Position numbers and translations under genes: made by a program. Shown here one piece after another: positions 8,674 through 21,956 of a stretch of DNA of 24,000 bases. The notes under the pieces are model-generated. The model was not told the origin of the DNA. It did not search any database and saw only the letters and a list, made by a program, of their open reading frames with translations. Location of the stretch: assembly GCA_040220895.1 (NCBI GenBank), contig JAVJVY010000009.1, forward strand, positions 48,362-72,361, in the 5' to 3' direction. This DNA is from Vicingaceae bacterium. GTDB lineage: Bacteria; Bacteroidota; Bacteroidia; Flavobacteriales_E; Vicingaceae. Positions within the stretch are counted from its first letter, which is position 1, and each line of letters opens with the position of its first letter.

Positions 8674-9726
8674 CTATTGACTTACTGTTGAGCCTTGGCA
8701 ACTTGATCCTGCTCCTGCTGTGCATCCATAACAGTGCTGTCCGGTCACAATTGCTCGTTGTTTAAGTGCCTGCAAACTTATGTCAGCTAAATTCATTCCC
8801 GATGAAGTCACAACTCCCAATTGTAGCATCTGATTAAAATCGCAGTCATAAACCTTACCGGTGTAATCAACCGATATGGTATTGCGACACATTAAACCAT
8901 CAACGGCAGCAGGATTAAATGACTCCACTAATTTTTCCATATAATCTTCGTAATTACCGCTAGCAATGAGATAGTCCAAAAAACGATTGATGGGCAGATT
9001 CGTTAGTGCGAATAATTGATTGAATGTTATATCATGGTTATCCTTTAGGACTCTTTTGAAGGTTCGCTCCAATTCCTTTTGATCACCTGGCAAAAATGCT
9101 CCACCCGGATTATAGACCAAGTCGAGTATCAGGTCATCTCCGTAACCAACTTCATTCAACATTCGCAAAGCCTTGATGGATTTATCGAAAACGCCATTGC
9201 CTCGTTGTCGATCAGTCTTTGATGCAGAGAAATATGGAAGCGAACTTACCACGCGTAATCGGTTTTCCCGAAAGAACTCGGGCAAATCCTGGTAAGAAGC
9301 ACTGGCCAGAAAAATGGTCAGATTGGAACGAACGATGATTTCCTTCACTCCCGCTTTTCTGAGTTCCGATATGAAATACCTGAAATTGGGATTCATTTCG
9401 GGAGCTCCGCCGGTAAGATCGACCGTGGGCACACCAAATTCACGAATTTTAGACACACAAAGGTCCATGACCTCGCGCTCCATAATTTCCTTTCTTTCGG
9501 GACCGGCATCCACATGGCAGTGCTTGCATGTTTGGTTACACATGTAGCCCAAATTGATTTGAAATATTTCGAGGTCCGTTGGTTTTAATTGCTGAAATCC
9601 ACTCTTCTTGAGCATTTCTTTGAATCTCGGGAGCTTTCCACCGGTAAAAAGGCCGTTGTTCAGAACATCGTTCTGGTAGGAGGGCGAAGCCAAGGTTGCA
9701 TTTAAATGTTTGAGTGTCTGGGCCAT
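8674..9726 (-). CDS. arsS: ArsS-type radical SAM / Cys-rich domain protein (TIGR04167-like)
   Basis: The CX3CX2C motif CNQTCKHC lies at aa 63-70 (nt 9517-9540). The C-terminal Cys-rich tail HCYGCTAGAGSSCQG (nt 8698-8733) is characteristic of this family. 350 aa. The gene symbol reflects family membership only, not a demonstrated substrate. Confidence 0.82.
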   Translation of the reverse strand: MAQTLKHLNATLASPSYQNDVLNNGLFTGGKLPRFKEMLKKSGFQQLKPTDLEIFQINLGYMCNQTCKHCHVDAGPERKEIMEREVMDLCVSKIREFGVPTVDLTGGAPEMNPNFRYFISELRKAGVKEIIVRSNLTIFLASASYQDLPEFFRENRLRVVSSLPYFSASKTDRQRGNGVFDKSIKALRMLNEVGYGDDLILDLVYNPGGAFLPGDQKELERTFKRVLKDNHDITFNQLFALTNLPINRFLDYLIASGNYEDYMEKLVESFNPAAVDGLMCRNTISVDYTGKVYDCDFNQMLQLGVVTSSGMNLADISLQALKQRAIVTGQHCYGCTAGAGSSCQGSTVSQ

Positions 9727-9727
9727 T

Positions 9728-10063
9728 TCACATGGAAAGTTTCTTGACCTTGTTCATCATTTGCACTCCGTGTACCAAAGAAGCTCCTCCGCGTATTGCA
9801 GCTGCTACGTGAACCGCTTCCATCATTTGGGCTTCATCCAGCCCTTTCTCCAAACAGCCAACGGAATACGCGTCTATGCAGTAAGGGCATTGAATGGTAT
9901 GCGAAACTGCCAGTGCGATCAATGCCTTTTCTCTCGCAGTTAGGGCTCCTTCCTCAAATACACTGTTGTAATATGAGAAGAACTTTTTGGCCAACTCCGG
10001 TTCAAATTCGGCGATGTCACCAAACTTTTTAAGGTCAGCGGGGTCGTAATAGGTGTTTTCCAT
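9728..10063 (-). CDS. AhpD/carboxymuconolactone-decarboxylase-like 'peroxidase-like' protein associated with ArsS-type rSAM clusters (TIGR04169-like)
   Basis: It starts MENTYYDPADLKKFG and has the AhpD-like CxxC motif SHTIQCPYCIDAY (CPYC at nt 9878-9889). The ATG at 10063 is preferred over the track's TTG at 10093. The stop lies 1 nt before the arsS ATG. Confidence 0.8.
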   Translation of the reverse strand: MENTYYDPADLKKFGDIAEFEPELAKKFFSYYNSVFEEGALTAREKALIALAVSHTIQCPYCIDAYSVGCLEKGLDEAQMMEAVHVAAAIRGGASLVHGVQMMNKVKKLSM

Positions 10064-10071
10064 TTTTGAGG

Positions 10072-10800
10072 TTATTTTCCGTTCAAATCCCAATTGTACT
10101 TCAAGAAGTTTAAACTGGCATTTTTAGCTATTTCCAAATGAGGAGTTTGTTTATTGATGTAAACCGGAATCGAAGATTCCTCCTTTAAAAAATCTGATGC
10201 GTACCACTCAAATATTTTTGAAACCTGCAAGTGATTCTTACTCAGTATATTATACCTATCATCGTTGATGAAACCCCTGGCTGCCAAACGGAGTTCAATG
10301 TTGAGATTTTCTGCTGTATAGGCCTTGTTTCTAAGTGGGGGGCACGATTTGGCGGAACAATTTATGGCAAAATGGATACGCGAATCATTGAATTGACCCA
10401 ACAGCATGGTCTTTTCTATGTAATTCAATGTATACAACTTACCGCCGATGTCAATGAAAGGAATATTCCAGGCATCTTTTCCATCTTCCTTTATGTCCAT
10501 GATCGTTTTTAGAGGATAGTATTTTAATATGAGTTTAATAGTGAATGCGTTATATGCATTTATCCAAAAAGCTTCTTGCTGTTCTACTTTCCAATTTGGT
10601 TGGGGCGGGTTCTTTTCTAAAAACTCCAGGTATTGATTTAGTACTTCTTCATCGCTTTTAAAACCTTGGTAATTTACATTGCCATATGGATCAACGTATT
10701 TCTGTAAAAGGTCCGTCCATTGCCCATGAGTGACATTCTGTGACCATAAAAAAGAAGTAAAGGTGAACAGCAGTATAGTTGCAACGATTGATTTTAGCAT
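10072..10800 (-). CDS. Exported DUF547-domain protein; first gene of the rSAM operon
   Basis: It has the DUF547 signatures EAFWINAYNAFTIKLIL and DSRIHFAINCSAKSCPPL. I chose the ATG at 10800, which gives the signal peptide MLKSIVATILLFTFTSFLWSQ. The track ORF extends to 11073, but that extension overlaps the divergent gene and has no signal-peptide logic. Confidence 0.8.
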   Translation of the reverse strand: MLKSIVATILLFTFTSFLWSQNVTHGQWTDLLQKYVDPYGNVNYQGFKSDEEVLNQYLEFLEKNPPQPNWKVEQQEAFWINAYNAFTIKLILKYYPLKTIMDIKEDGKDAWNIPFIDIGGKLYTLNYIEKTMLLGQFNDSRIHFAINCSAKSCPPLRNKAYTAENLNIELRLAARGFINDDRYNILSKNHLQVSKIFEWYASDFLKEESSIPVYINKQTPHLEIAKNASLNFLKYNWDLNGK

Positions 10801-10814
10801 GGGATTCTTTTGAA

Positions 10815-10822
10815 CAAATGTA
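10815..10822 (-). promoter_or_regulatory. Candidate Bacteroidota -7 promoter box (TACATTTG) for the rSAM operon
   Basis: Exact TAnnTTTG match on the minus strand, 15 nt upstream of the DUF547 ATG, within the 106-bp divergent intergenic region. On the plus strand, TATCTTTA (10876-10883, one mismatch) lies upstream of the aminotransferase. Confidence 0.4.
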
Positions 10823-10906
10823 CCAAATAAGGATGTTAGATAATTGTCCGGCTTTTTACAATACTCCAATTGTAATATCTTTACATTTAACGCCGAAACA
10901 ACCACC

Positions 10907-12064
10907 ATGCCACAGTTTTCAGGATCTATTCGCTCTAAACTACCACAAGTAGAAACGAGCATTTTTACCACTATGAGCCACCTGGCCGTCCAGGAACAGG
11001 CCATAAACCTCTCACAAGGATTCCCCGACTTTAGCTGCAGCCCCTCACTGATAGAACTTGTGAATAAATTCATGCAGGCAGGCTATAATCAATACAGCCA
11101 TATGGCCGGTTTTATTGGATTGAGAAAAGTGATCTCTGATAAGGTCGAGAAATTGTACGGCTTGAGGTACAACGCTGAAACTGAAATTACTATTACGGCC
11201 GGGGGCACTCAGGCCATATTTACGGCCATTATTAGTAGCATAAGTGAAGGCGATGAAGTCATCATTTTTACCCCCGCTTACGATTGTTTTGAGCCGGCAA
11301 TTGAATTGAGCGGAGGCAAGCCGATCTTTGTGCAACTGAGCGGCCCGGATTATCATATTGATTGGGAGTTGGTAAAGAAAGTGATCAACCAGAAAACCAA
11401 GATGATCATTATTAATTCGCCGCACAATCCGACTGGAAATGTGCTTACCGAGGAAGATTTTGACCAGTTGGAAAAAATTGTCGGTAATTCAGACATCCTG
11501 GTGCTGAGCGATGAGGTCTATGAGCATATTGTGTTTGATGGCAGGCAGCACCAGAGCATGGCTCGATTTCCGAAATTGGCTGAACGCAGCTTTGTAGTTT
11601 CTTCTTTTGGAAAGACATATCATACCACGGGTTGGAAAGTGGGGTATTGCCTTGCTCCCGAAAACTTGATGAAAGAATTCAGGAAGGCGCATCAATACAT
11701 TGTTTTTGCCGTGAACACCCCAATACAGCATGCCTTGTCAGAATTTCTCTTGTACGAAGATGCCTACAATGGCCTTTCCGCTTTTTACCAAGACAAGCGA
11801 GACCTCTTTTTAAAATTAATAGCGAACAGTCGCTTTAAATTCGAGCCCAGCAAAGGCACCTATTTCCAACTTTTAAGATACGATGGGATCACGGATATGG
11901 GCGACGTAGAGTATGCCATTGAACTGACAAAAAAGAATAAACTGGCCTCCATTCCAGTATCGGTATTCTATCATAAAAAAGTAGACAACAAAGTGCTGCG
12001 GTTTTGCTTTGCCAAAGACGACAGTACGTTGCAGGCCGCGGCAGAAATACTAAACTTTCTATAA
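10907..12064 (+). CDS. ybdL: PLP-dependent methionine/glutamine aminotransferase (YbdL-like, class I)
   Basis: It aligns by eye end to end with E. coli YbdL (SKLPQVETSIFTTMSHLA, AINLSQGFPDF, SDEVYEHIVF, SSFGKTYHTTGWKVGYC with the PLP lysine, LRFCFAK). The ATG at 10907 fits the YbdL N-terminus better than the track start at 10844. Confidence 0.88.
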   Translation: MPQFSGSIRSKLPQVETSIFTTMSHLAVQEQAINLSQGFPDFSCSPSLIELVNKFMQAGYNQYSHMAGFIGLRKVISDKVEKLYGLRYNAETEITITAGGTQAIFTAIISSISEGDEVIIFTPAYDCFEPAIELSGGKPIFVQLSGPDYHIDWELVKKVINQKTKMIIINSPHNPTGNVLTEEDFDQLEKIVGNSDILVLSDEVYEHIVFDGRQHQSMARFPKLAERSFVVSSFGKTYHTTGWKVGYCLAPENLMKEFRKAHQYIVFAVNTPIQHALSEFLLYEDAYNGLSAFYQDKRDLFLKLIANSRFKFEPSKGTYFQLLRYDGITDMGDVEYAIELTKKNKLASIPVSVFYHKKVDNKVLRFCFAKDDSTLQAAAEILNFL

Positions 12065-12065
12065 C

Positions 12066-12872
12066 GTGTCTGACCTTAAGATCTCTTTGATTCAAACGGA
12101 ATTGTTTTGGGAAAACAAGAGGGCAAACTTCGAATTCCTTGCAAGGAAGATCGCTGAATTAAAAGGGAAAACCGACATTGTCCTTTTACCGGAAATGTTC
12201 TCTACCGGTTTTACCATGAACGCTAAAATTCTGGCGGAAAGCATGGATGGAAATACTATCTCTTGGATGCACCAACAAGCAAAAGAATATGGGCTGGTTG
12301 TTGCGGGAAGTTTTATTTGCAATGAGCAGGGCAAGTATTATAACCGCTTTGTATGGATGCCTCCTGATGGAAATCCGATCCATTACGATAAAAAGCACCT
12401 TTTCAGAATGGCAAAGGAAGAGGCGCATTATTCTCCGGGCAACCACCTAAAAACCATTGAGTATAATAATTGGAAAATACGGCCAATGGTATGCTACGAT
12501 CTTAGATTTCCAGTTTGGAGCAGCAATCGTGTAAATCAGACTCAGGGAAGTCTCAACCCAGCATTTGACGTCCTTCTTTACGTAGCCAACTGGCCCAAAG
12601 TTAGAGTTTCGGCCTGGGATATATTGCTAAGGGCCAGAGCAGTTGAAAATCAAGTTTACTGCCTGGGTGTTAACAGGGTTGGTGAAGATGGTAATGGAAA
12701 GGTCTATTCGGGACATTCAGCTGTTATCGAACCCAAGGGCTCTTATTTACTGGAACCCGTGATTGATATTGAGGGGTCTTTCACCGTTGCCCTGAACAAA
12801 TCCTACCTTGAGGACTACCGTAAAAAATTTCCACAAGGACTTGATGCGGATCAGTTTGAGCTAACGAATTAA
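12066..12872 (+). CDS. yafV: Omega-amidase / carbon-nitrogen hydrolase (YafV-like, 2-oxoglutaramate amidase)
   Basis: It aligns by eye with E. coli YafV. The Glu-Lys-Cys triad contexts are LPEMF, YDKKHLF and VCYDLRFPVWS. The GTG start lies 1 nt after the ybdL stop. Confidence 0.87.
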   Translation: MSDLKISLIQTELFWENKRANFEFLARKIAELKGKTDIVLLPEMFSTGFTMNAKILAESMDGNTISWMHQQAKEYGLVVAGSFICNEQGKYYNRFVWMPPDGNPIHYDKKHLFRMAKEEAHYSPGNHLKTIEYNNWKIRPMVCYDLRFPVWSSNRVNQTQGSLNPAFDVLLYVANWPKVRVSAWDILLRARAVENQVYCLGVNRVGEDGNGKVYSGHSAVIEPKGSYLLEPVIDIEGSFTVALNKSYLEDYRKKFPQGLDADQFELTN

Positions 12873-15800
12873 GTTCAGGCTACCTTTTTCTTCTTTGGAC
12901 GCTATATTTCCATCTGCTTCTTTGATCTTATAAAAGATCTTCCAAACATAGGTGTCAGAGGGCACCGGTTTGCCATCTTTTGTCCCATCCCAGGTGAAAT
13001 TTGGGTTCTTAGTAAGGTATATCAGCTCTCCCCATCGGTTATAAATGTGGAACTCAAAATCATCAAGATTCAAAGCGCTTATACTGAATATATCGTTGAT
13101 CTGATCGTTGTTTGGAGTAAAGGCATTCGGTACAAAAATCTTTTCAGTACAGTACTCTACGACTTTTGAAAAACTTCGAACTTCACACACGCGCCCATTA
13201 ATTATTGTCACGCCATAGGTTCCTTCTTCAGAAACCGTGATTGAAGGTGTTACTTGTCCATTATCCCATTTGTAGCGGTAATCTTCACCTCCGGCACTAA
13301 GGGTAATGCCAAAGGGGTTTTCCTTTTTGCAAAATACGGCCGTGCGGGGTAATTCAGAAACCGGATATTCGTAAACCACTAGATTCGTTGAATCTCGTCC
13401 TATACAGGTGCCATCGTTGATCTCAACCCAATAAAAGCCCGGAGTTCGGACAACTATTTGTTGGCTTGTTTCACCCGTAGACCATGAGTAGGCAGAACCT
13501 GCATTTGATGCGTCAAGAATGGCGCTGTCACCTTCACAGATTTCTGTAAAAAATCGAATGTCTGTTTTTGGAAGAGGCGCCAATCCTATTTCCACCGTAT
13601 CGGTAAAGGTGCAATTGAAGGCATCTGTTACGCGCACCCAGTACTGACCGTCGCCTAAAACCAAGAGCACTGAATCAGATGAGTTGTCTTGCCATGCATA
13701 AGATGCAAAGTCGGGTCCCGCCTTTAACTTAAGAAATCCGCCTAAGCAGTAATTGGTGTCAGGACCTAAATCGAGTAGCGGCGAAGGGTATACTGTAAGG
13801 GTGAGACTATCCTCATCGGTACATCCAAATGAATTTGTTACACCTAGCACAAAAGTCGTTGTTTCATTGACGCGTGCAACGGGATTGGGGATTGAAGCGT
13901 CGTCCAAAGCCGCTGCAGGAGTCCAGTTGTAAGTACCACCACCACTGCCCTGCAGCTGAACAATTTCATCCCTGCAAACGTTCCTGCTTGCCGAAACCAC
14001 GGCTGCTGGATTTGGCAACAAATTGATGAAAACAGTGTCAGATTTGATACAACCCGAAGTGTCAATTACCATGACCGAATAAAATGAACCGTTTTTAACA
14101 GTCACACTCGGATTGGGAATGGTATCGTTTGAAACTTCCCAACCTGGGTACCAAAAGTATTTAGGGTCGGCCGCATTGGTGGTAACGCTTAACGGATAAT
14201 CGGTTGTATTACACAGCGTGGTGTCTTTCTGCGCGTCAACATCAAAACTTATTAATGAAAGATCGATGCTGTCGGTGAGGATGCATCCGGTGGTCAAGTC
14301 TGTAAGATCTAAATAATACCGCCCCGGACTATCCATCAATGCTTTTGGATTTTTTAAGGTTGGGTTGTCGAATAAGTTCGACGGCGACCAGTCATAACTG
14401 AAACTATTGGGCACGTAAGAACAGTACTTAAAGCCAATATTGGCTCGACGGTTATACAAGCTGGCAGAATTATTACTGCAAACCGAATTTCCGCGGTTGT
14501 AAGAAACACAGTTGAAAACCGGGAAGGGCTGAGAATAGCGGACCTCCGAGCTGATGCCCAAAGCACTATTTTGATAGCAAACCTCTACCACCACATTGGA
14601 GAGTCCGTCCCAGTTAAATCGGTTGTCGAAATCAAACCAATTTATACCGTTGACCAGAATAATGTCTTTTGGTTCAAAAACCGTGGCCAGACCACCAGTA
14701 AACGTGGTTGACAGTGAGTTGCTCGACGTACAACCCATTTTAATTCTAAAATTTTGATAGTCGTCTTTGCCGAGGTTTGAAATGTCGAATGAAAGTGATG
14801 AGATCTGACCCGAAGTGTTCAAACCGGCCGAAGCTATTTCAGCTGCAGTGATTAGAAACTGTTTTCTTCCGCTAAGATCACTGGAAACAAAAGGGGTGAT
14901 GTTGAACTGGGAAGAAGTAAAGGTTTGCGTTCCTATATTCATGGTAGAAGATGCATTACAAAGCGAGGAATTGGATTTACCACAACCCAGCAAAGGATTC
15001 GCGAAAAGCCTGAGGCTATCACCTTCGCAATTAGGTCCTGCGGCCGAAGATAAATTGATGTCAAGGGCATCTTGGACGCCAAAATTCAACGTGTCCCATT
15101 TGATACAGCCCAAGCTGGATTTTATTTCAGATAAGATTGTAATTGCATCATTTACAAATATATACGGGTTTGAAACACTTGTCGAAGACACTAAAGCAGC
15201 GGGTGACCAAAGGTAGGTTACAGGGTTCGAAGAGGTATGACTGGCATTGAGCTGTACACTGTCTTCTATACACAAGATCGAATCGGCCGTGGTCGTAGTA
15301 TTGAAATTGGGGGCAACCGTGATGTCAATGGTGTCAAGGTCAAAACAACCCGTCTGTGGATCGGTAACCCTTAGTTCATAAGGGGTACTTGCCGAGGGGG
15401 AAGCCTTCACATTGGGAATGGTATCGTTGTCCAGTCCGGCGGCGGGCGTCCATTGGTAGGAGTAAGCCTGATTGGGGGGGCTAGCGCAATATTTCAAGCG
15501 CATTTCGGGCCGTACCGTCGTTCCGAAATTCGCAACTGTGTCACTACAAAAAGGTGGCGAATTCCACTTCATGGCAGTTCTGTTTGCTGCCAGAATCGTA
15601 TAATTCATGGTGGTAAAAGTGAAGCCAAGGGAAGAAGTATTTTGCCAGCAGACTTCAACCACCAGGTTGGATGTTCCGTCCCAGACATAAGGCGCATCAA
15701 AAGCGTAGTCATTCCACCCCGAACTAATGTTGATGTTCTTAGGCGTGTAAACCGTCTGAGTGGATTGAATGAATGGGATTGAACCAAAACCGGTAAATGA

Positions 15801-17591
15801 ACTCTGAGATGTACAACCGATCTTAATGGTAAATCCTTGTCGCAGCGTAGAAGCCGAACCCGTTGAAAGGAGGTTAAATCCAAGAGAGGTAATGCTCTTG
15901 GAATTGGTCAAAGCGGCGAGTTCCGAAGCCAAAATGATGTATTGCTTCTTTTGACCCGGATTATTTCCAAAACCATTCGCGTCGTATGGACTGATGGTCA
16001 CCCCACCGGAGGGAAAGCTGGATGTACCCGAAAAGGTCAAGTCAGACTGATTGGTGCAGCTAATCCAATTGTATGCCTGACATCCCACCGCACTGGTGCT
16101 TATGTCTATGGGCAAAGAATCACCGGCGCAAATCGTGGTGTCTTGAGTAAGAATGGCCGTATTAACCGGTGGGTTTAAACTGACACTGAAACTATCTGTT
16201 CTTTCACAACCGGCTGTGCTCTTTATTGAGAGATATACCACAGCGTCTGCTGTAAAATAAGCTGTAGTGTTGGGCAAGGTGTCATTTGTGATTAATGCTC
16301 CAGACGACCATTGATAGCTGGCTCCTGGCCCGGCATTATCTGTGGATATCAATGGAATCGTATCGGCTTCACATAAGGCCGTATCACTGTTAACGGTAAA
16401 CGCAAAGCTATTACCCACGACAATCTCAGAGGTATCAACCACCAAACAACCGTTTGCATCAGTGATCGTGGCAATATAAGTGGTTGTTGATGTTGGACTG
16501 GCCTTTGGCGATCGAATAACGGCTGAAGACAAGCCGGCAGTTGGTGTCCAAGTGTAAGTAAGCGTATCGGTATGAACCAGGTCGCAAAATTTAAAACGAG
16601 TGTTAGGCCTACGGTTTATGTTTTGGCCAGAATTAACTCCGCAAACATTGCTATTCGCCACTTGGTAGCGCATTACATTTTGTCCTGTTATAATTTCATA
16701 TTGAATAAAAGGCGTACCATTCGATGCAGAAGCATTCACATAGCACAATTCAACCACTAAATTGCTCTCCCCATCCCAACGAAAAGCATTGTCAAATACA
16801 AATTCTCTCCAGCCACTTCCGCTGATGACCGTTGTTTTAGGGATGTAGACATTCGACAGCCCACCTTGCCAATTTCCAAACACCGAATCGTTAGTACAGC
16901 CTATGTTAATTCGCAAATTGTCGTAGGTCTGACTGCCGGTAAACAAATTGAAATTGAAGAAAAGCGAAGTAAGATTGGTAGGGCCGGTTACACCAACATT
17001 GGTAAGGTCGTTTTTGGTGAAAATGAACTGCCGCTTGTTACTTCGAACTTGTTGAAAAAAATTATTGACTTTATAAAATGGATTCTCAAACTGAGACCCT
17101 CCCCAAAAGGTGCCTGAACCTACTGTTCCGGTTGTCGTGGTAGTTAAGCAAGTGCCGGGGACCACTGCACAAAGCGCCGTATTTGTGATTTTGAGTTGCA
17201 CGCTGTCACCTCCGCATATGGTGTCCCTTTGGGGAATTATTCCAACTGGAGGCGGAACGTTTTGCACAGTGATAGTAACGACATCAGTGACCGTATCAGA
17301 AGTTGGGGTGTTTATTACGGTAACAGTGTAAATTGTGGAAGAGCTTGGCGTTGCCACAGGACTGGCAATGTTCGCGTTGTTTAGGCCCGTGGCAGGTGAC
17401 CAAGTATACGTATAACTGCTGCCCCCCGATGGGGTGGTAAAAAGTTGAACAGAGCTTCCGGGGCAAATGGTGGTGTCAGCGCTCGAAACAGTTGTTATTT
17501 GCGCAATTAGATCTGTGGAGCAAAGTATTGTAAGCACCGCAGGCAAAACAAATGCCTTTAAAAAGCCATGAGTCGAAAAATGTCCATTCAT
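12861..17591 (-). CDS. Giant (1576 aa) cell-surface repeat protein with a T9SS type B C-terminal domain (SprB-class adhesin-like)
   Basis: The signal peptide is ...VLPAVLTILCSTDLIAQ. Many Ig-like repeats of about 80 aa follow the pattern C-x-G-D-S..L ... Y-x-W-x-P..GL ... NP ... T-x-Y ... GC..D. There are three inserted modules of about 190 aa. The C-terminus is a gliding-motility/CHU_C-type domain. Confidence 0.9.
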   Translation of the reverse strand: MNGHFSTHGFLKAFVLPAVLTILCSTDLIAQITTVSSADTTICPGSSVQLFTTPSGGSSYTYTWSPATGLNNANIASPVATPSSSTIYTVTVINTPTSDTVTDVVTITVQNVPPPVGIIPQRDTICGGDSVQLKITNTALCAVVPGTCLTTTTTGTVGSGTFWGGSQFENPFYKVNNFFQQVRSNKRQFIFTKNDLTNVGVTGPTNLTSLFFNFNLFTGSQTYDNLRINIGCTNDSVFGNWQGGLSNVYIPKTTVISGSGWREFVFDNAFRWDGESNLVVELCYVNASASNGTPFIQYEIITGQNVMRYQVANSNVCGVNSGQNINRRPNTRFKFCDLVHTDTLTYTWTPTAGLSSAVIRSPKASPTSTTTYIATITDANGCLVVDTSEIVVGNSFAFTVNSDTALCEADTIPLISTDNAGPGASYQWSSGALITNDTLPNTTAYFTADAVVYLSIKSTAGCERTDSFSVSLNPPVNTAILTQDTTICAGDSLPIDISTSAVGCQAYNWISCTNQSDLTFSGTSSFPSGGVTISPYDANGFGNNPGQKKQYIILASELAALTNSKSITSLGFNLLSTGSASTLRQGFTIKIGCTSQSSFTGFGSIPFIQSTQTVYTPKNINISSGWNDYAFDAPYVWDGTSNLVVEVCWQNTSSLGFTFTTMNYTILAANRTAMKWNSPPFCSDTVANFGTTVRPEMRLKYCASPPNQAYSYQWTPAAGLDNDTIPNVKASPSASTPYELRVTDPQTGCFDLDTIDITVAPNFNTTTTADSILCIEDSVQLNASHTSSNPVTYLWSPAALVSSTSVSNPYIFVNDAITILSEIKSSLGCIKWDTLNFGVQDALDINLSSAAGPNCEGDSLRLFANPLLGCGKSNSSLCNASSTMNIGTQTFTSSQFNITPFVSSDLSGRKQFLITAAEIASAGLNTSGQISSLSFDISNLGKDDYQNFRIKMGCTSSNSLSTTFTGGLATVFEPKDIILVNGINWFDFDNRFNWDGLSNVVVEVCYQNSALGISSEVRYSQPFPVFNCVSYNRGNSVCSNNSASLYNRRANIGFKYCSYVPNSFSYDWSPSNLFDNPTLKNPKALMDSPGRYYLDLTDLTTGCILTDSIDLSLISFDVDAQKDTTLCNTTDYPLSVTTNAADPKYFWYPGWEVSNDTIPNPSVTVKNGSFYSVMVIDTSGCIKSDTVFINLLPNPAAVVSASRNVCRDEIVQLQGSGGGTYNWTPAAALDDASIPNPVARVNETTTFVLGVTNSFGCTDEDSLTLTVYPSPLLDLGPDTNYCLGGFLKLKAGPDFASYAWQDNSSDSVLLVLGDGQYWVRVTDAFNCTFTDTVEIGLAPLPKTDIRFFTEICEGDSAILDASNAGSAYSWSTGETSQQIVVRTPGFYWVEINDGTCIGRDSTNLVVYEYPVSELPRTAVFCKKENPFGITLSAGGEDYRYKWDNGQVTPSITVSEEGTYGVTIINGRVCEVRSFSKVVEYCTEKIFVPNAFTPNNDQINDIFSISALNLDDFEFHIYNRWGELIYLTKNPNFTWDGTKDGKPVPSDTYVWKIFYKIKEADGNIASKEEKGSLNLIR
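12864..13151 (-). other. T9SS type B CTD (gliding motility-associated C-terminal domain) of the giant protein
   Basis: aa 1481-1576 read CTEKIFVPNAFTPNNDQINDIFSI...FHIYNRWGELIY...WDGTKDGKPVPSDTYVWKIFYK...GSLNLIR. Confidence 0.88.
14421..14984 (-). repeat. Unrecognised Cys-bracketed module, copy 3 (aa 870-1057)
   Basis: Sequence: CGKSNSSLC...RKQFLITAAEI...ISSLSFDI...NFRIKMGCT...INWFDFDNRFNWDGLSNVVVEVCYQN...RRANIGFKYC. Confidence 0.7.
15486..16082 (-). repeat. Unrecognised Cys-bracketed module, copy 2 (aa 504-702)
   Basis: Sequence: CQAYNWISC...KKQYIILASEL...ITSLGFNL...GFTIKIGCT...GWNDYAFDAPYVWDGTSNLVVEVCWQN...VRPEMRLKYC. Confidence 0.7.
16584..17171 (-). repeat. Unrecognised Cys-bracketed module, copy 1 (aa 141-336 of the giant protein)
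   Basis: Sequence: CAVVPGTC...KRQFIFTKNDL...LTSLFFNF...NLRINIGCT...GWREFVFDNAFRWDGESNLVVELCYVN...RRPNTRFKFC. Confidence 0.7.
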
Positions 17592-17663: not shown

Positions 17664-18308
17664 CTATTTTGGCTCTTGTGTGGGAACATCAATAAATTCC
17701 CCGTCCAAAAGCGCAACACGGTATAAAAAAGGATCGACGGGTTCAGAAATGAACTCGAACTTTCCTGAGATATAGCCGTTCACGTCATCGCGACTGGTAA
17801 TGCTGATCACACCGCTTTGCAACCTGGCGGATCCCGGTGTTACGCCGGGAGCGAAAGAAACATAGCGTTCATACGTTTCCAGATTTGATACCTCATAAAC
17901 ACCACGCTCCAATGACCTCGGAATTTTAAATGCCATGGATATAAAACCTGAGTTATTTGGGAAAGTGTCTGACGCAATTACAATGATGTTATCCGGATCG
18001 GTGGTATTATTGACTTGGACATACCTGGCTGTCCAGAATCGATTTTGCGTCTTATTGCTGTCTATGATCCATGTGCTGTCAACGGTTACTGTCAGCGCAG
18101 GATTACCAACCTCACATGGCGCACAGCTAGGTCCACCGCAATCCACTTTGTATTCGGTTCCATTCTGAATTTTATCGGTACAAGAAGCTCCTTCAACTGC
18201 GGGATACGTTTCCACCGGGCCTTCTTTGACGCAGGAATTCAAGGCCACCGCAGCTATAGTCAATACCATGGCCGCATACTTATAAGTTGATTTAAACATT
18301 GTTTTCAT
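17664..18308 (-). CDS. Putative lipoprotein with an N-terminal four-Cys mini-domain and a beta-rich C-terminal domain
   Basis: The signal peptide and lipobox-like segment is AAVALNSC (Cys26). A C-x13-C-x4-C-x2-C motif follows (CTDKIQNGTEYKVDCGGPSCAPC, nt 18114-18182). The C-terminal part ends ISITSRDDVNGYISGKFEFIS...LLDGEFIDVP, which recalls lipocalin-like Bacteroidota lipoprotein domains. No firm family assignment. Confidence 0.65.
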   Translation of the reverse strand: MKTMFKSTYKYAAMVLTIAAVALNSCVKEGPVETYPAVEGASCTDKIQNGTEYKVDCGGPSCAPCEVGNPALTVTVDSTWIIDSNKTQNRFWTARYVQVNNTTDPDNIIVIASDTFPNNSGFISMAFKIPRSLERGVYEVSNLETYERYVSFAPGVTPGSARLQSGVISITSRDDVNGYISGKFEFISEPVDPFLYRVALLDGEFIDVPTQEPK

Positions 18309-18316
18309 CGTTAGAA

Positions 18317-19387
18317 TTAAAAGAATTCTGTGTTACCTTTTCTGGGCAGCAGGGTTCGTTCCTTCCAGAAACTTGAATAGGTCAGGACGAACTCGAGTGC
18401 ACCCCTCTTTTTGACAAAGCTAGTTCCGGCTTCACCCGAAATATCCATATCATAAGAGATGCCCAAATCTATGTTCTGCCTGAGGTCAACTTTCATAAGT
18501 AAGACCAGGTCCTTAGTTGTTCTATAGAAAATTCCGGCATAAAACGCAGAAGACTTTTTAATGTGTGTCATTCGGGAATCGAAGGACAAGTAAAATTTGG
18601 AGATCACACCGACCGTAGTTTCGCTTACGTAAGATCTGGAACGATACATAACGTGTGGCATCAATGACATGGTCGTATTGGGTATGAACCATTCAGCCGC
18701 CGTGTGAAACACCATCTGCATTGGCACATTTTCAACCAAGCGGTTGTCAAAATTACTTTCGGGCTCATTGACCTGATTAAGGGCAAATCCGGCATTCAAT
18801 TTTAAATGATCTTCTTTCGCGTAGTTCCAAAGCAAGCCTACTGAGATTGGCGTATAATTTGCCTTCTCATTATTGGCCAATGGATCTGAAAAAGCGTTTG
18901 GGTCATAGGAAGCGCTTCCTTCATCAAACTGGCTTTCCCACCTGAAATTTGAATAATTTACCGATCGCGTTGCCTGTCCAACCTTGGTGCCAAGTGTCAA
19001 GTGATGCAATTCGCCAATTCTAAGGTTATACGACAACATCAGATTAATTTCCTGAAGACCCAAGTCCCCTTCACCCGCTTTGTCATTTAAAAAATTCAAC
19101 CCTGCACCAAAAAATGATTTTCTTTCACTGCCATCCGATTTTTTATACTTTGCTATACCCATGTCCCAAGAGGCAAAAATGGTGGTAAATGGATCTGCAG
19201 CACTGTATTGACTTTGACGATAATCCATAATAAAGCGATAATCCCCTCCAAACGCTCCTGTGGAGGCGGGGTTTATTGCAGGCATTACCGTATAGTATTG
19301 TGAGTAATTGATGTCCTGAGCCGTGACCGATCCAACCATCAATACGGCCAGTGCCGCTAAACCTTTTCTAATAAATCTCATCTTCAT
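18317..19387 (-). CDS. PorP/SprF-family type IX secretion system outer-membrane protein
   Basis: 356 aa. After the signal peptide comes the family N-terminal signature QDINYSQYYTVMPAINPASTG. An alternating beta-barrel-like pattern runs to a C-terminal F. It lies directly after a type B CTD cargo gene (16-nt gap), like the sprB-sprF arrangement. Confidence 0.85.
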   Translation of the reverse strand: MKMRFIRKGLAALAVLMVGSVTAQDINYSQYYTVMPAINPASTGAFGGDYRFIMDYRQSQYSAADPFTTIFASWDMGIAKYKKSDGSERKSFFGAGLNFLNDKAGEGDLGLQEINLMLSYNLRIGELHHLTLGTKVGQATRSVNYSNFRWESQFDEGSASYDPNAFSDPLANNEKANYTPISVGLLWNYAKEDHLKLNAGFALNQVNEPESNFDNRLVENVPMQMVFHTAAEWFIPNTTMSLMPHVMYRSRSYVSETTVGVISKFYLSFDSRMTHIKKSSAFYAGIFYRTTKDLVLLMKVDLRQNIDLGISYDMDISGEAGTSFVKKRGALEFVLTYSSFWKERTLLPRKGNTEFF

Positions 19388-19403
19388 CTGCCTCTATGTT
19401 ATG

Positions 19404-21956
19404 CTACCTGATCAAAGATATTTGTCCGGCCTGTTCGATAGGAATACCTGACTGAAACGGCCTTGCTATCATTTTCCACAAGTAAACGTCTTTTGAAAGT
19501 AATTCGCCATCGACAGTTCCGTCCCATCCACCATCAAGGTCGCGACTTTCGTAAACTGCTCGGCCAAATCGATCATAAATTTGGAATTCCATGCTTTTAA
19601 TTCCTTTTGTTTTGACCACTAATTCATCGTTAAAGCCATCTCCATTTGGCGAGAAGGCAGTAGGCACAAAGATCACAATGCGCGGGTTCAAACTAACAAC
19701 AATGGAATCAGCATTCTCACAACCATTCGAATCAGTACCAATAACATAGTAGGTCCTGCTTTGTGGGTTTTGCCTATTGTAGATTGGTGTGGCTATCGGC
19801 CGGTTGCAATCCTGGCAACTCAATTCATCGTTGTTGATGGCCGACCAGAAATACGAATTTCCGGCATAAGCTCGCAGTATCAGATTGTCTCCAAGGAATA
19901 TGGTGGTGTCAACGCCCGTATTGATCAATGGAAGCGGATTAACCACGATTTCTGTGGCAGTTGTATCCGACGAACATTGATTGCCATCTCCGTCCAGATC
20001 CGACAAAGCAATGACCGAATATGGTGTATTGACAGTGGGATTCACCATAATCGAAGCAGTAGTAACGGCAGGATTAAGCCATTGATACGTCGTGGCTCCC
20101 ACAGCGGTGAGTGTAGCGGTGTCCCCTATGCAAATATTCGTGTCACCCTGAATGTCTGCCTGTGCGGGTTGAATGACGGTGATCTGTACACTGACGGTGT
20201 CAATGCAATTTGCACTGGCTGCCACAAAAGGATAAAAGAAATTCGTGTCGGGATTGAAAATATAATCTCCACCGATTTGGGTGAATCTATAATTGAAGAA
20301 AGATTGCAAGTTGAATACCGTGGGAACAGATGAGTAATTCATAATGGCCGAATCACCTGAACAGATCTTAATCTCAATGTTGGCGGAATCAAGCACTGGC
20401 GCAGACGGAGCAGGCACTGAGGTCATTTGAATGGTAGGTACGGGGAATATGGTCACGTTCTGGGTTGCTGAATTTTGACAACCGTTGGTGTCTGTATAGG
20501 TATACGTTATGTTGAAGCTTCCAGGGCCGAGTTGTCCGGTAATAATCGTATCACCGTCAGCGGAAATACCCGGTCCGCTAAAGGTTCCTCCGACAGGATT
20601 TACATAGGTGGAGGTATTCAGGTTTCTGCGACCCGAGTTTTCGCATAAATTCGAGACTGAATTAAAAACAACTGCAGGGATTGGGTTGACAACGATGTTC
20701 TGTGAGACACAGGTTTCACAATTGTTCGGGCCAGTATAACAATAAGTAATGGTATGCGTGCCGGCTCCGGCGATGGTCGGATCGAAATAAAATGCCCCAG
20801 GTATTCCCGAAACTCCAGTACCTGAATAAGTCCCCCCTGCTGGAGTTCCCTGATTCAATAGGATCTGGTTATCATTCGCACATGGCGAAGGAAAGGCATT
20901 CAGAGTCACAGTCGGGTTCTGATTGACCAAAATGGAATCTATGGCGAAGTTTGAGCAAACACCGTCAAAAAAGTTAAACGTTATGACATTCCAACCAACA
21001 TTACCCGGGTCGGGATCAAAAGTTCCAAGAACAGTATCCACCCCATTTCCTGTGAACCATGCAGTCGGCCAACCCGAGGTGCTGGGTGACTGACCGGTTA
21101 TACCATATGCCCCGTCAAATTCGCAGGCAAATTTTTGCGCTGCTGGAATGCTCAAAGAAACCGTAGGAAGAGCTCTGACATGAACTTGCGTTGAGGCCGT
21201 GTCTGTGCAGTTGTTTCCATTGATGAAATAGTACTTGATGGTATGGTTCCCAACACCTGCGTTTCCTATATTGAAATTGGATCCGCTAATCCCCGGCCCT
21301 GTCAAGGTGCCTCCACTCGGTCCGGTTGTGACGGGCACACTCTGTGGAATTTGGTTAGAGCAATAAGCCGTATCAAGGCCTGAGATACTGGCAGCAGTTA
21401 CCGAATTGACGATGACACTTATCGAGGCGGTATCTGAACATCCTGTGGTACTGTTGGTAAAGGTATAGCTAAGCTGATACGGAGAACCACCGGAGCCAAC
21501 GGTTGGGCCGAAATTTCCCGAACCACTGCTCACGCCTGATCCAAAATAAAAGCCGGTTCCGCCCGTTGTGGGAAGCCCCCCGGTAAGCGCAATACTGTCT
21601 TGATTCTCACAGTATGGCCCCAAAGTAGAAAATGTTACGTTGGGAGTCGCATTCACGGTAATGGTTACAAAAGCAGTGTCAGAACAACTATTGGCCGTGT
21701 AACCCAGGGTATGAGTTCCGACTCCGGCCGAAATGGGAGAAAAGTTATAAGGACCCGAGCCTATAACACCTGGGCCAAAATACACACCGGGAGAAGGTGT
21801 CCCGCCGCTCAACAACGTCAAGCCGCTATTAGTACACTGATTGGGATAGGTAGTGTTCCATTGAGAACACTGCGCTGTTCCTTCAAAATATCCAAACAAC
21901 AAAACGCCGACAACGGCGATGCTGCGAAGTGGGAAAATCGTTTTAATTCTAGCCAT
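19404..21956 (-). CDS. 850-aa cell-surface repeat protein with a T9SS type B C-terminal domain
   Basis: It has a signal peptide, six repeats of about 80 aa (G-x-G-V/I-S ... F-x-P ... G-x-G-x-H-x-I-x-Y ... C), two Ig-like C-x-G-D ... Y-x-W repeats, and then a type B CTD. Confidence 0.88.
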   Translation of the reverse strand: MARIKTIFPLRSIAVVGVLLFGYFEGTAQCSQWNTTYPNQCTNSGLTLLSGGTPSPGVYFGPGVIGSGPYNFSPISAGVGTHTLGYTANSCSDTAFVTITVNATPNVTFSTLGPYCENQDSIALTGGLPTTGGTGFYFGSGVSSGSGNFGPTVGSGGSPYQLSYTFTNSTTGCSDTASISVIVNSVTAASISGLDTAYCSNQIPQSVPVTTGPSGGTLTGPGISGSNFNIGNAGVGNHTIKYYFINGNNCTDTASTQVHVRALPTVSLSIPAAQKFACEFDGAYGITGQSPSTSGWPTAWFTGNGVDTVLGTFDPDPGNVGWNVITFNFFDGVCSNFAIDSILVNQNPTVTLNAFPSPCANDNQILLNQGTPAGGTYSGTGVSGIPGAFYFDPTIAGAGTHTITYCYTGPNNCETCVSQNIVVNPIPAVVFNSVSNLCENSGRRNLNTSTYVNPVGGTFSGPGISADGDTIITGQLGPGSFNITYTYTDTNGCQNSATQNVTIFPVPTIQMTSVPAPSAPVLDSANIEIKICSGDSAIMNYSSVPTVFNLQSFFNYRFTQIGGDYIFNPDTNFFYPFVAASANCIDTVSVQITVIQPAQADIQGDTNICIGDTATLTAVGATTYQWLNPAVTTASIMVNPTVNTPYSVIALSDLDGDGNQCSSDTTATEIVVNPLPLINTGVDTTIFLGDNLILRAYAGNSYFWSAINNDELSCQDCNRPIATPIYNRQNPQSRTYYVIGTDSNGCENADSIVVSLNPRIVIFVPTAFSPNGDGFNDELVVKTKGIKSMEFQIYDRFGRAVYESRDLDGGWDGTVDGELLSKDVYLWKMIARPFQSGIPIEQAGQISLIR
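19407..19685 (-). other. T9SS type B CTD of the 850-aa protein
   Basis: aa 758-850 read PRIVIFVPTAFSPNGDGFNDELVV...FQIYDRFGRAVYES...WDGTVDGELLSKDVYLWKMIA...GQISLIR. Confidence 0.88.
20442..21869 (-). repeat. Six tandem protein-level repeats of about 80 aa in the 850-aa adhesin
   Basis: The repeat-initial Cys residues fall near aa 41, 116, 199, 278, 359 and 438. Each unit has L-x-G-G-x-P-x-G-G-x-Y/F-x-G-x-G-V/I, then F-x-P-x-x-x-G-x-G-x-H-x-I/L-x-Y, then a Cys and V-x-V-N-x-x-P. Confidence 0.65.

What the first reader, a model, noticed from the sequence alone, without database searches (positions are those of the whole stretch)
14421..17171. Triplicated, unrecognised Cys-bracketed domain of about 190 aa, nested inside Ig-like repeats of the giant adhesin
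Seen in the sequence: three copies (aa 141-336, 504-702 and 870-1057) recur with a period of about 365 aa. They share these blocks:
- [RK]xQ[FY][IL][IF]TxxE/D[LI]
- I[ST]SLxF[ND]
- F[RT]IK[IM]GCT
- GW/NWxxFxFDxxFxWDGxSN[LV]VVE[LV]C[YW]xN
- a terminal R[RP]xxxx[FL]K[FY]C

Six Cys positions are conserved, so three disulfides are possible.

Each copy starts right after the C-x-G-D-S..L strand of a host Ig-like repeat. It ends just before that same repeat's Y-x-W-x-P..GL...GC..D part. An example is ICGGDSVQLKITNTAL-[module]-DLVHTDTLTYTWTPTAGL. The module is therefore a domain insertion in a loop, not a bead on the string.

I cannot match the module to a Pfam family from memory. The WDGxSNLVVE core suggests a beta-sandwich or jelly-roll binding domain. 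It may be the ligand-binding 'business end' displayed three times on a SprB-like stalk.
Basis: seen in the sequence. Interest (0 to 1): 0.65.

Follow-up and report, generated by a model that had tools for sequence, protein, structure and literature searches.

The report
Unnamed binding-type domain nested in Ig repeats
A secreted surface protein of an aquatic Flavobacteriales bacterium carries three copies of a roughly 190-residue all-beta domain, each spliced into a loop of an Ig-like stalk repeat; the domain belongs to a very large family that Pfam, NCBIfam and the PDB do not describe, and its function is unknown but most likely adhesive.

Summary
The gene at 12861-17591 (minus strand) encodes a 1576-aa protein with a T9SS type-B C-terminal domain. 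It holds three homologous modules (aa 141-336, 504-702, 870-1057), about 33% identical, with pairwise E of 7e-19 and 5e-27 and six conserved Cys.

Each module interrupts an Ig_7/PKD-like repeat between the C-x-G-D-S-x-x-L strand and the Y-x-W-x-P strand. With the module deleted in silico, each host aligns end to end with the intact repeats, and one host matches Pfam Ig_7 across the junction.

No Pfam, NCBIfam or PDB sequence match covers the module. AlphaFold models give a confident all-beta sandwich. Foldseek finds only weak jelly-roll resemblance (PHR domain, CBM-like domain of acetyl-xylan esterases, ConA-type lectins; TM 0.51 or less).

The module is not rare. A profile finds at least about 4,700 and probably about 12,800 clusters at 50% identity, in Bacteroidota and Cloacimonadota surface proteins. 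It often sits at the N-terminal tip and reaches 14 copies per protein. The nested, Cys-bracketed unit recurs in many Bacteroidota proteins, and in two relatives it sits inside SprB repeats.

Best reading: an uncharacterised ligand-binding head displayed three times sideways on an adhesin stalk. Binding is inferred, not shown. The 'SprB-like giant adhesin' label does not fit this protein.

The parts
12861..17591 (-). Host gene, 1576 aa. It is a Sec/T9SS-exported surface protein with Ig-like repeats, three nested modules and a type-B C-terminal domain.
   Evidence: ORF list and translation. Pfam CHU_C and Ig_7, NCBIfam TIGR04131. The same protein is found on a 55-kb metagenome contig. A 99% identical cluster mate is named 'gliding motility-associated C-terminal domain-containing protein [Vicingaceae]'.
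17502..17591 (-). Probable signal peptide, aa 1-30 (MNGHFSTHGFLKAFVLPAVLTILCSTDLIA|Q).
   Evidence: Read from the translation: a hydrophobic core followed by A-Q. No predictor was run.
17259..17501 (-). Ig-like repeat 1, intact (aa 31-111).
   Evidence: Alignment of the repeats. Weak PKD/Ig hits.
17172..17258 (-). Host Ig repeat 2, N-terminal part (aa 112-140). Holds strands A-B with C-G-G-D-S-V-Q-L.
   Evidence: The AF2 model shows two strands here.
16584..17171 (-). Module copy 1 (aa 141-336), running from Cys 141 to Cys 336.
   Evidence: Module HMM E 4.7e-49. The AF2 core has pLDDT of about 90 or more.
16401..16583 (-). Host Ig repeat 2, C-terminal part (aa 337-397). Holds Y-T-W-T-P ... N-G-C.
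16167..16400 (-). Ig-like repeat 3, intact (aa 398-475).
16083..16166 (-). Host Ig repeat 4, N-terminal part (aa 476-503).
15486..16082 (-). Module copy 2 (aa 504-702).
   Evidence: Module HMM E 1.7e-48.
15300..15485 (-). Host Ig repeat 4, C-terminal part (aa 703-764).
15066..15299 (-). Ig-like repeat 5, intact (aa 765-842).
14985..15065 (-). Host Ig repeat 6, N-terminal part (aa 843-869).
14421..14984 (-). Module copy 3 (aa 870-1057).
   Evidence: Module HMM E 2.2e-53. AF2 pLDDT is about 90 in the core.
14235..14420 (-). Host Ig repeat 6, C-terminal part (aa 1058-1119).
13137..14234 (-). Further intact Ig-like repeats (aa 1120-1485), including the Pfam Ig_7 match at aa 1195-1269.
12864..13136 (-). 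T9SS type-B sorting domain (aa 1486-1576).
   Evidence: PF13585 CHU_C E 3.6e-17 and TIGR04131 E 2.1e-16.
18317..19387 (-). PorP/SprF-family gene, two genes upstream on the same strand. It is a possible shuttle for type-B cargo. It lies directly downstream of another CHU_C protein (19404-21956).
   Evidence: PF11751 E 7.6e-35. Pairing rule from PMC12618676. The C-terminal domains of the two CHU_C proteins are 37% identical.

Best explanation
**What the protein is.** The gene encodes a cell-surface protein of a Vicingaceae-like member of the Flavobacteriales. It is exported by the Sec pathway and then by the type IX secretion system through a type-B C-terminal domain.

**The stalk and the insertions.** The body is a stalk of about eleven Ig_7/PKD-like beta-sandwich repeats. 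In repeats 2, 4 and 6, the loop between strand B (C-x-G-D-S-x-x-L) and strand C (Y-x-W-x-P) carries an inserted module of about 190 aa. The module is all-beta and of jelly-roll type.

**The cysteines.** The module starts and ends with a Cys and has four further conserved Cys. Three disulfides are most likely. One would staple the two ends of the insert together. A second would link the two Cys within the C-terminal half of the module (V-E-V-C and V-C-S). The third would tie the N-terminal arm to the G-C-T strand.

**The family.** The module belongs to a very large, unnamed family of extracellular domains in Bacteroidota and Cloacimonadota surface proteins. In the proteins examined it usually sits directly after the signal peptide, at the distal tip, or in tandem arrays.

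**Proposed function.** I propose it is a ligand-binding (adhesive) head. In this protein three heads project sideways from the stalk and so give multivalent binding. The likely ligand is a polymer or cell surface met in water, possibly a glycan.

**Shown versus inferred.** Shown: the homology of the three copies, the nested topology at sequence level, the all-beta fold prediction, the lack of any family assignment, the family's size, and the recurrence of the nested unit. Inferred: the disulfide pairings, the sideways geometry, and any binding function or ligand.
For: **Homology and nesting**
- The three copies are homologous.
- The spliced hosts align end to end with intact Ig repeats, leaving only about 5 extra residues at the junction.
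- Spliced host 2 hits Pfam Ig_7 positions 6-75 of 84 across the junction at E 3.7e-4. The intact repeat 8 scores E 9.3e-4.

**Structure**
- AF2 model of unit 1: mean pLDDT 84.3, pTM 0.75. Two host strands lie before the insert and at least three after it. The module is all-beta with one short helix.
- The unit 3 model agrees for the module.
- Foldseek against the PDB gives only remote jelly-roll and binding-module hits: PHR domain 3gbw (TM 0.51), the CBM-like domain of AcXE esterases 7toj/7tog/7tok, ConA-type lectins and CBM35. The AcXE domain takes part in sugar binding (PMC9105624).

**No family assignment**
- No Pfam, NCBIfam or PDB sequence match covers the module.

**Family size and position**
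- The profile search finds 26,261 clusters at E up to 1e-3, 12,796 at E up to 1e-10 and 4,717 at E up to 1e-30, with up to 14 copies per protein.
- In 87 of 138 top hits that begin with Met, a module starts within 60 residues of the N terminus.
- Partner domains are all extracellular: Por or CHU_C sorting domains, fn3, PKD, GEVED and choice-of-anchor domains.

**Recurrence of the nested unit**
- Nested units recur in 9 of 147 top proteins and in most of the 27 genome loci, all from Bacteroidota MAGs. The six Cys are nearly invariant in them.
- The two Cys in the C-terminal half co-occur across 650 modules (phi 0.83).
- Every one of the 41 modules that has both the G-C-T Cys and the terminal Cys also has two N-terminal Cys.

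**Secretion context**
- The protein has a type-B C-terminal domain, and a PorP/SprF gene lies nearby.
- Type-B cargo are known or predicted adhesins (PMC12618676).
Against: - No binding function has been shown for any member of the family, and no member appears in the PDB.
- The structural resemblance to lectins and CBMs is weak (TM 0.51 or less, E above 1e-3) and generic for beta sandwiches.
- Conservation is only slightly higher in predicted strands than in loops (entropy 1.93 vs 2.04). There is therefore no clear signature of a conserved pocket or of hypervariable binding loops.
- I could not inspect model coordinates. The contact between the host's N-terminal strands and its C-terminal part, the closeness of the module's two ends, and the disulfide pairings are all unverified.
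- The host Ig segments have only moderate confidence (pLDDT 59-86).
- The PorP/SprF gene is not directly downstream of this gene, as the usual pairing rule expects.
- The count of 26,261 hits is inflated. The search profile also contained Ig and Por-tail columns (one search shows a Por-tail hit).
Confidence: 0.6

Rival explanations
1. The module is specifically a carbohydrate-binding module or lectin. The protein would tether the cell to polysaccharide particles or algal surfaces, or hold polysaccharide at the cell surface. This is a narrower form of the best explanation.
For: The best PDB fold matches include the CBM-like domain of Bacteroidota acetyl-xylan esterases (7toj, 7tog, 7tok), CBM35 (4qb2) and ConA-type lectins. 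That CBM-like domain contacts the sugar ligand (PMC9105624). The relatives come from aquatic Bacteroidota. A SusE-domain T9SS protein lies in the same window.
Against: All the fold matches are weak (TM 0.51 or less, E above 1e-3). No CBM or lectin Pfam family matches even at E up to 10. No aromatic platform or metal-site motif could be identified. The gene is not in a polysaccharide-utilisation locus; its neighbours are another CHU_C protein, PorP/SprF and DUF6252.
Confidence: 0.25
2. The module is structural or self-associating rather than ligand-binding. It might make homophilic contacts between neighbouring surface proteins or cells (aggregation, a surface lattice). It might instead act as a bulky side-arm that stiffens or spaces the stalk.
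For: The family occurs in long tandem arrays of up to 14 copies with little else between them. Conservation is spread over the whole fold rather than concentrated in a site. Disulfide stapling suggests mechanical robustness.
Against: The frequent position at the N-terminal tip, right after the signal peptide, is typical of binding heads rather than spacers. Ordinary Ig, fn3 and PKD repeats already serve as the stalk in the same proteins.
Confidence: 0.12
3. The module is an unrecognised enzyme domain, for example a hydrolase or lyase, displayed on the surface.
For: Only that no function is known, and that some jelly-roll folds are catalytic. Foldseek lists cupin-type dioxygenases at very low probability.
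Against: No match to any enzyme family in Pfam, NCBIfam or the PDB. The few invariant polar residues (Q, D, N, E) lie in or next to core strands and turns. The enzyme-like fold hits have probability of 0.1 or less.
Confidence: 0.03

Closest known systems
T9SS type-B cargo adhesins of Flavobacteria (SprB, Fjoh_3952 and similar) with their PorP/SprF-like shuttles
   Same: N-terminal signal peptide, a long repetitive beta-sandwich stalk, a type-B sorting domain (TIGR04131/PF13585) and a PorP/SprF-family gene nearby. Type-B cargo are known or predicted adhesins (PMC12618676).
   Different: The window protein has no SprB repeats and is four times shorter than SprB. The sprF-like gene lies two genes upstream and directly follows another CHU_C protein, instead of lying directly downstream. 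The nested module is not a described part of SprB-type adhesins.
Fibrillar adhesins built from a binding head plus stalk domains (for example CshA NR2/GEVED; PMC10952558)
   Same: Modular logic: a variable beta-sandwich head combined by domain shuffling with different stalk repeats and different anchors, including CHU_C in Bacteroidetes. GEVED co-occurs with the module family in one homolog, P0024.
   Different: There is no sequence match to GEVED (PF20009) or CshA_NR2. Here the head is also inserted inside stalk domains and repeated along the stalk, not only placed at the tip.
CBM-like N-terminal domain of FjoAcXE-type acetyl-xylan esterases (PDB 7tok, 7toj, 7tog)
   Same: A Bacteroidota beta-sandwich of similar size that does not group with existing CBM families. 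It is among the best fold matches in both models and contributes sugar-contacting residues (PMC9105624).
   Different: TM is only 0.23-0.45, identity 6-10%, and E is 3e-3 or weaker. There is no sequence relationship. That domain is fused to an SGNH esterase, not to an adhesin stalk.
PHR domain of MYCBP2/PAM/Highwire (PDB 3gbw)
   Same: It is a beta sandwich of about 160 aa.
   Different: It is a eukaryotic intracellular domain. Identity is 9-11% and rmsd 7.5 A, and there is no Pfam hit. The resemblance is at the level of general topology only.
Known nested-domain architectures (for example the laminin LF domain inserted in an LE repeat, PDB 5lf2)
   Same: A globular beta domain is inserted in a loop of a small disulfide-rich repeat of a rod-like extracellular protein. 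5lf2 appears in the fold hit lists.
   Different: The host fold (EGF-like) and the kingdom are unrelated. The fold match is weak (TM about 0.25).

Membership tests
T9SS type-B cargo (gliding motility-associated C-terminal domain proteins) | C-terminal type-B sorting domain (TIGR04131 / PF13585 CHU_C) scoring above the curated cut-off | tested here: met
   PF13585 scores 62.7 bits against a cut-off of 27. TIGR04131 scores 59.8 bits against a cut-off of 35. Both cover aa 1486-1574.
T9SS type-B cargo (gliding motility-associated C-terminal domain proteins) | [quoted passage not shown] | tested here: inconclusive
   A PorP/SprF gene lies at 18317-19387. It is two genes upstream and directly downstream of another CHU_C gene. 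The gene downstream of ours is a convergent CN-hydrolase. The two C-terminal domains are 37% identical. Orphan cargo and shuttle sharing are documented (PMC12618676).
Ig_7 (PF19081), the Ig-like domain associated with CHU_C, as host of the insert | Match to the Pfam model across the whole repeat, including across the splice junction once the module is removed | tested here: inconclusive
   The whole protein passes the cut-off (33.3 bits against 27.3) through repeat 8. Spliced host 2 matches positions 6-75 of 84 across the junction, but at 21.2 bits, E 3.7e-4, below the cut-off. Spliced hosts 4 and 6 give no Ig_7 hit. All three align end to end with the intact repeats.
SprB repeat proteins (PF13573) | SprB repeat matches in the stalk | tested here: not met
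   The window protein has no PF13573 hit at E up to 1. In relatives L017 and L006 the spliced host does match SprB across the junction, at E 5.7e-5 and 1.4e-3.
Any characterised CBM, lectin or adhesin-head family in Pfam (including GEVED, CshA_NR2, cleaved adhesin, PA14, PHR) | Sequence match of the module to the family model | tested here: not met
   The three modules give only two chance-level hits at E above 0.1 (NOD2_WH, AglB_L1) and nothing else at E up to 10. Of 27 family members scanned, none has a model covering the module. NCBIfam hits fall only on the Por tail.
Proteins with a solved structure | Sequence or fold match to a PDB chain at a level that implies homology | tested here: not met
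   Profile searches of PDB sequences give no hit in the module region. Foldseek against the PDB gives no match at E up to 1e-3 and a best TM of 0.51.
The unnamed module family itself (profile built here) | Full-length match to the 200-position module HMM with the core G-x-G-T, Q-x-[IL]-[YF], I-x-S-[IL]-x-F and W-D-G-x-S-N-L-V-V blocks | tested here: met
   The three domains score E 4.7e-49, 1.7e-48 and 2.2e-53 and cover HMM positions 7-200. The window copies were among the 27 sequences used to build the HMM, so these scores are partly circular. The independent evidence is the alignment with homologs found by search.
Nested 'Ig with insert' unit (profile built here from 22 units) | Colinear match running host strands A-B, then module, then host strands C-G, without a large extra insertion | tested here: met
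   The window units cover HMM positions 2-295, 6-295 and 9-289 of 298. Their aligned length is about equal to the HMM length. The same holds for 34 units in 9 other representative proteins and for most genome loci. The three-dimensional completion of the host fold could not be checked from coordinates.

The most novel reading that the evidence does not exclude
The module would define a major, so far unnamed superfamily of extracellular binding domains of the FCB group (Bacteroidota and Cloacimonadota), with its own fold variant and a new ligand specificity. The disulfide-stapled 'Ig or SprB repeat with inserted head' would then be a conserved composite building block. T9SS adhesins would use it to place several binding heads sideways along one stalk. 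That would point to where ligand recognition sits in the many uncharacterised gliding and adhesion proteins of Bacteroidota.
Probability: 0.35. Interest if true: 0.65.

Novelty: new variant of a known kind. Interest (0 to 1): 0.45.

Why it matters
T9SS surface proteins of Bacteroidota are numerous and large, and mostly annotated only by their stalk repeats and sorting domains. What they bind is largely unknown.

This module is one of the commonest unannotated pieces of such proteins. It is found in thousands of sequence clusters, often at the distal tip.

Naming it, solving one structure and finding one ligand would transfer to a very large set of proteins from aquatic, gut and rumen bacteria. 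The nested, disulfide-stapled unit is also a clean natural example of domain insertion into an Ig-like repeat. It could be useful for protein engineering and for annotation pipelines that currently split or miss the host repeat.

Tried and rejected
**Library searches with no result**
- Pfam on the whole protein, on the three modules at E up to 10, on 27 family members and on 6 top hits. No model covers the module.
- NCBIfam. The apparent M36, M6-like and PorU hits all fall on the Por sorting tail of homologs, not on the module.
- PDB sequence search with two profiles. The only hits were a Por-tail chain and chance matches.

**Structure work**
- Foldseek against the PDB with two independent models gave only generic jelly-roll matches.
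- The first AF2 run (unit 3, alignment without nested homologs) modelled the host Ig poorly.
- A second alignment with nested units cut from database proteins was accepted and gave a better model.

**Homolog searches**
- The word-indexed homolog search was insensitive here (10, 24 and 12 hits) and did not return the window protein.
- The exhaustive profile search was needed. Its profile included Ig and Por-tail columns, so the loosest count is inflated.

**Viral contigs**
- One alignment was too diverse to use. Two pattern scans found no relatives. The BFVD structural hit could therefore not be followed by sequence.

**Other checks**
- Strand versus loop conservation gave no clear functional signal.
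- My first regular-expression test for nesting was too strict (13 of 611). I replaced it with a nested-unit HMM.

**Ideas considered and rejected**
- Relation to the TANFOR N-terminal domain (PMC7073777): rejected, because no corresponding NCBIfam model was hit.
- Relation to GEVED (the V-V-E-V-C motif against G-E-V-E-D): rejected, because there is no Pfam hit and the motif sits in mid-domain rather than at the C terminus.
Full report
**1. What is there**

The finding lies in one ORF, window 12861-17591 on the minus strand, 1576 aa.
- Pfam finds a CHU_C type IX secretion signal domain at aa 1486-1557 (E 3.6e-17) and an Ig_7 'CHU_C associated' repeat.
- NCBIfam finds the T9SS type-B sorting domain TIGR04131 (E 2.1e-16).
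- The N terminus reads as a signal peptide. This is my reading; I ran no predictor.
- The identical protein is on a 55-kb metagenome contig (Logan SRR26209234).
- A 99% identical cluster mate exists. One member of that cluster is an NCBI MAG protein named 'gliding motility-associated C-terminal domain-containing protein [Vicingaceae]'. Vicingaceae are Flavobacteriales, Bacteroidota.

**2.

- The three modules are about 33% identical. BLASTP gives E 7e-19 (copy 1 vs 2) and 5e-27 (copy 1 vs 3).
- The roughly 365-aa period is a super-unit of one interrupted Ig-like repeat plus one intact repeat, present three times. The super-units are 31-32% identical over about 350 aligned residues.
- There is no DNA-level repeat implication. 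The triplication is old.

**3. The module is nested, not a bead on the string**

I removed each module in silico.
- The three spliced hosts (89-90 aa) then align end to end with the intact repeats 1, 3, 5, 7 and 8. Only about five extra residues remain at the junction. The hallmark residues line up: Cys in C-x-G-D-S, Y-x-W, and the late G-C.
- Spliced host 2 matches Pfam Ig_7 positions 6-75 of 84 across the junction at E 3.7e-4. That is as good as the intact repeat 8 (E 9.3e-4), though both single repeats are below the curated cut-off. Spliced hosts 4 and 6 gave no Ig_7 hit.
- An AF2 model of unit 1, built with nested homologs in the alignment, has mean pLDDT 84.3 and pTM 0.75. It shows two strands before the insert and at least three after it, as expected for an Ig fold split after strand B.
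- I could not read coordinates, so the three-dimensional completion of the host remains unverified.

**4. What the module is**

No library assigns it.
- The three modules give nothing meaningful in Pfam at E up to 10.
- 27 family members and 6 top hits have no Pfam model over this region.
- NCBIfam hits fall only on the Por tails of homologs.
- PDB sequence searches with two profiles find nothing in the module.

Both AF2 models give a confident all-beta domain (core pLDDT about 90 or more) with one short helix.

Foldseek against the PDB returns no match at E up to 1e-3. The best matches are generic jelly-roll or sandwich domains:
- the first PHR domain of MYCBP2 (3gbw, TM 0.51);
- the CBM-like domain of Bacteroidota acetyl-xylan esterases (7toj, 7tog, 7tok);
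- ConA-type lectins, CBM35, viral capsid jelly rolls and the laminin LF domain.

The AcXE domain does not group with existing CBM families either, and it contributes sugar-contacting residues (PMC9105624).

**5. It is a member of a very large, unnamed family**

- Word-indexed searches found only a few relatives. These included small stand-alone proteins made of the module plus a Por tail, and many proteins with the module directly after the signal peptide.
- An exhaustive profile search of 1.84 billion representatives found 26,261 clusters at E up to 1e-3, 12,796 at E up to 1e-10 and 4,717 at E up to 1e-30. The best-scoring stretch of almost every listed top hit covers the module region, and proteins carry up to 14 copies.
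- Caveat: the profile also held Ig and Por-tail columns, and one search shows a Por-tail match. Only the stricter counts should be trusted.
- Named cluster members come from Prevotella, Bacteroidales, Flavobacteriales and Cloacimonadota. Their names derive from other domains they carry, never from this one.
- In 87 of 138 top hits that start with Met, a module begins within 60 residues of the N terminus. The median is 4 copies, though the top list is biased towards multi-copy proteins.
- Family consensus: I-G-x-G-T ... P ... Y-x-Y-S-x-Q-x-I-Y-T-A-x-E ... I-x-S-I-x-F ... I-Y-x-G-x-T ... F ... W ... V-F-x-G ... G-W-x-x-I-x-L-x-T-P-F-x-Y-D-G-x-S-N-L-V-V ... R-P-N-I.

**6. The nested, Cys-bracketed unit recurs**

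- A genome scan found 27 loci, all in Bacteroidota MAGs: Sphingobacteriales, Flavobacteriales, Parvicellaceae, Salibacteraceae, Chitinophagales, Vicingus and others. They are 27-41% identical to the window module.
- From these loci, 19 units show the same order: host strand, then C-x(6-8)-C, the module, R-P-x-x-x-F-x-x-C, and then Y/F-x-W ... G-C.
- In the 22-unit alignment all six module Cys and the host's late Cys are invariant or nearly so.
- An HMM of the nested unit aligns colinearly, with aligned length about equal to model length, to 34 units in 9 of the 147 top representative proteins. There are up to 6 units per protein, and the proteins carry either type-A or type-B sorting domains.
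- In two Salibacteraceae loci the host is a SprB repeat. The spliced host matches PF13573 positions 3-37 of 37 across the junction, at E 5.7e-5 and 1.4e-3.

So the same loop of related stalk repeats has been used repeatedly, or the composite unit has spread by duplication and shuffling.

**7. Disulfides**

- Across 650 modules, the Cys of V-E-V-C and the Cys about 35 residues later co-occur strongly: 113 modules have both, 27 and 9 have only one, phi 0.83.
- All 41 modules that have both the G-C-T Cys and the terminal Cys also have two N-terminal Cys.
- This fits three pairs: first with last Cys (a staple across the base of the insert), second Cys with G-C-T, and V-E-V-C with the following Cys. 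The pairing is an inference from co-occurrence, not a measurement.
- The host's own two Cys (C-x-G-D-S and G-C) would clamp the split Ig across the insertion. This is also an inference.

**8. Context**

- Upstream on the same strand lie a Big_5 protein, an 850-aa CHU_C protein, a PorP/SprF gene directly after it, and a DUF6252 gene. The adhesin gene follows. A convergent CN-hydrolase gene overlaps its 3' end by 12 bases.
[quoted passage not shown] Orphan cargo and shuttle sharing are documented (PMC12618676).
- The two C-terminal domains in the window are 37% identical over 92 aa. Whether they share the shuttle cannot be decided.

**9. How it most likely works**

Shown:
- a T9SS type-B surface protein with an Ig-like stalk;
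- three homologous all-beta modules inserted in the B-C loop of alternate repeats;
- membership of a huge extracellular family that favours the distal tip.

Inferred:
- The modules fold in the periplasm and acquire disulfides before T9SS export.
- They project sideways from the stalk near the junction with the preceding repeat.
- They act as binding heads, which would make the protein trivalent.
- The ligand is unknown. A glycan is the leading guess, but only from weak fold resemblance and the ecology of the hosts.

Rivals are a structural or self-associating role and, much less likely, an enzyme. Conservation is only slightly higher in predicted strands than in loops (entropy 1.93 vs 2.04), so the sequences give no clear pointer to a site.

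**10. Comparison and novelty**

- The protein works like other fibrillar adhesins built from stalk repeats plus a binding head (PMC10952558) and like the type-B T9SS adhesins.
- It is a member of the type-B cargo class, because the sorting domain passes both curated cut-offs.
- It is not a SprB-repeat protein, and the module belongs to no named family tested.
- The kind (a modular adhesin with a nested domain) is known.
- The module family and the conserved 'repeat with inserted head' unit appear undescribed in Pfam (2025 copy), NCBIfam (June 2026) and the PDB. I could not query InterPro, CATH/ECOD or the AlphaFold DB.
- I rate it a new variant of a known kind. It is of moderate interest, mainly as an annotation and structural-genomics target with wide reach.

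Noticed in passing
Model md6a2d4f119a6 of window 16401-17258 (-): Foldseek against predicted viral structures (BFVD) gives a much stronger match than any PDB entry. The target is A0A6J5NL19, an uncharacterised 463-aa protein of an uncultured Caudovirales phage: E 5.8e-10, TM 0.57 normalised to the query, 305 aligned columns, 13% identity. Several minor tail proteins rank lower. Two pattern scans of IMG/VR contigs found no sequence relatives.
   Followed up: partly
L017:5851-6783 and L006:584-1513 (Salibacteraceae MAGs): The same Cys-bracketed module is nested inside a SprB repeat (PF13573) rather than an Ig_7 repeat. The spliced hosts match the SprB model across the junction, at E 5.7e-5 and 1.4e-3. 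The adjacent intact repeat scores E 1.3e-11.
   Followed up: yes
window 17664-21956 (-): Three upstream genes lie on the same strand as the adhesin gene. They are a second type-B cargo (850 aa, CHU_C), a PorP/SprF-family gene directly after it, and a DUF6252 gene. The two CHU_C C-terminal domains are 37% identical over 92 aa. Whether both cargo use the one shuttle is open.
   Followed up: partly
window 12861-12872: The 3' end of the adhesin gene overlaps the 3' end of the convergent carbon-nitrogen hydrolase gene (12066-12872, + strand) by 12 bases.
   Followed up: no
window 4531-6588 (-): A 685-aa protein with SusE-like domains and a type-A Por_Secre_tail. It is therefore another T9SS cargo in the window, of the type-A class.
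   Followed up: no
window 8674-11073 (-): A radical SAM protein with a DUF3641 C-terminal domain (8674-9726) lies near a DUF547 protein (10072-11073). It is unrelated to the finding.
   Followed up: no
P0049 (Bacteroidales, 1617 aa) and P0046 (1651 aa): In some family members the modules follow one another directly, with no Ig host between them (gaps of 15 residues or fewer in 58 of 486 consecutive pairs). In P0049 the closing Cys of one copy lies about 7 residues before the opening Cys of the next.
   Followed up: partly
P0182 (232 aa, ENA contig of 1232 nt): A fragment that is 65% identical to the window protein over the aligned part and has the same N-terminal layout: signal peptide, intact Ig, then interrupted Ig with the start of the module. 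It is the only moderately close ortholog found besides the 99% identical strain variants.
   Followed up: no
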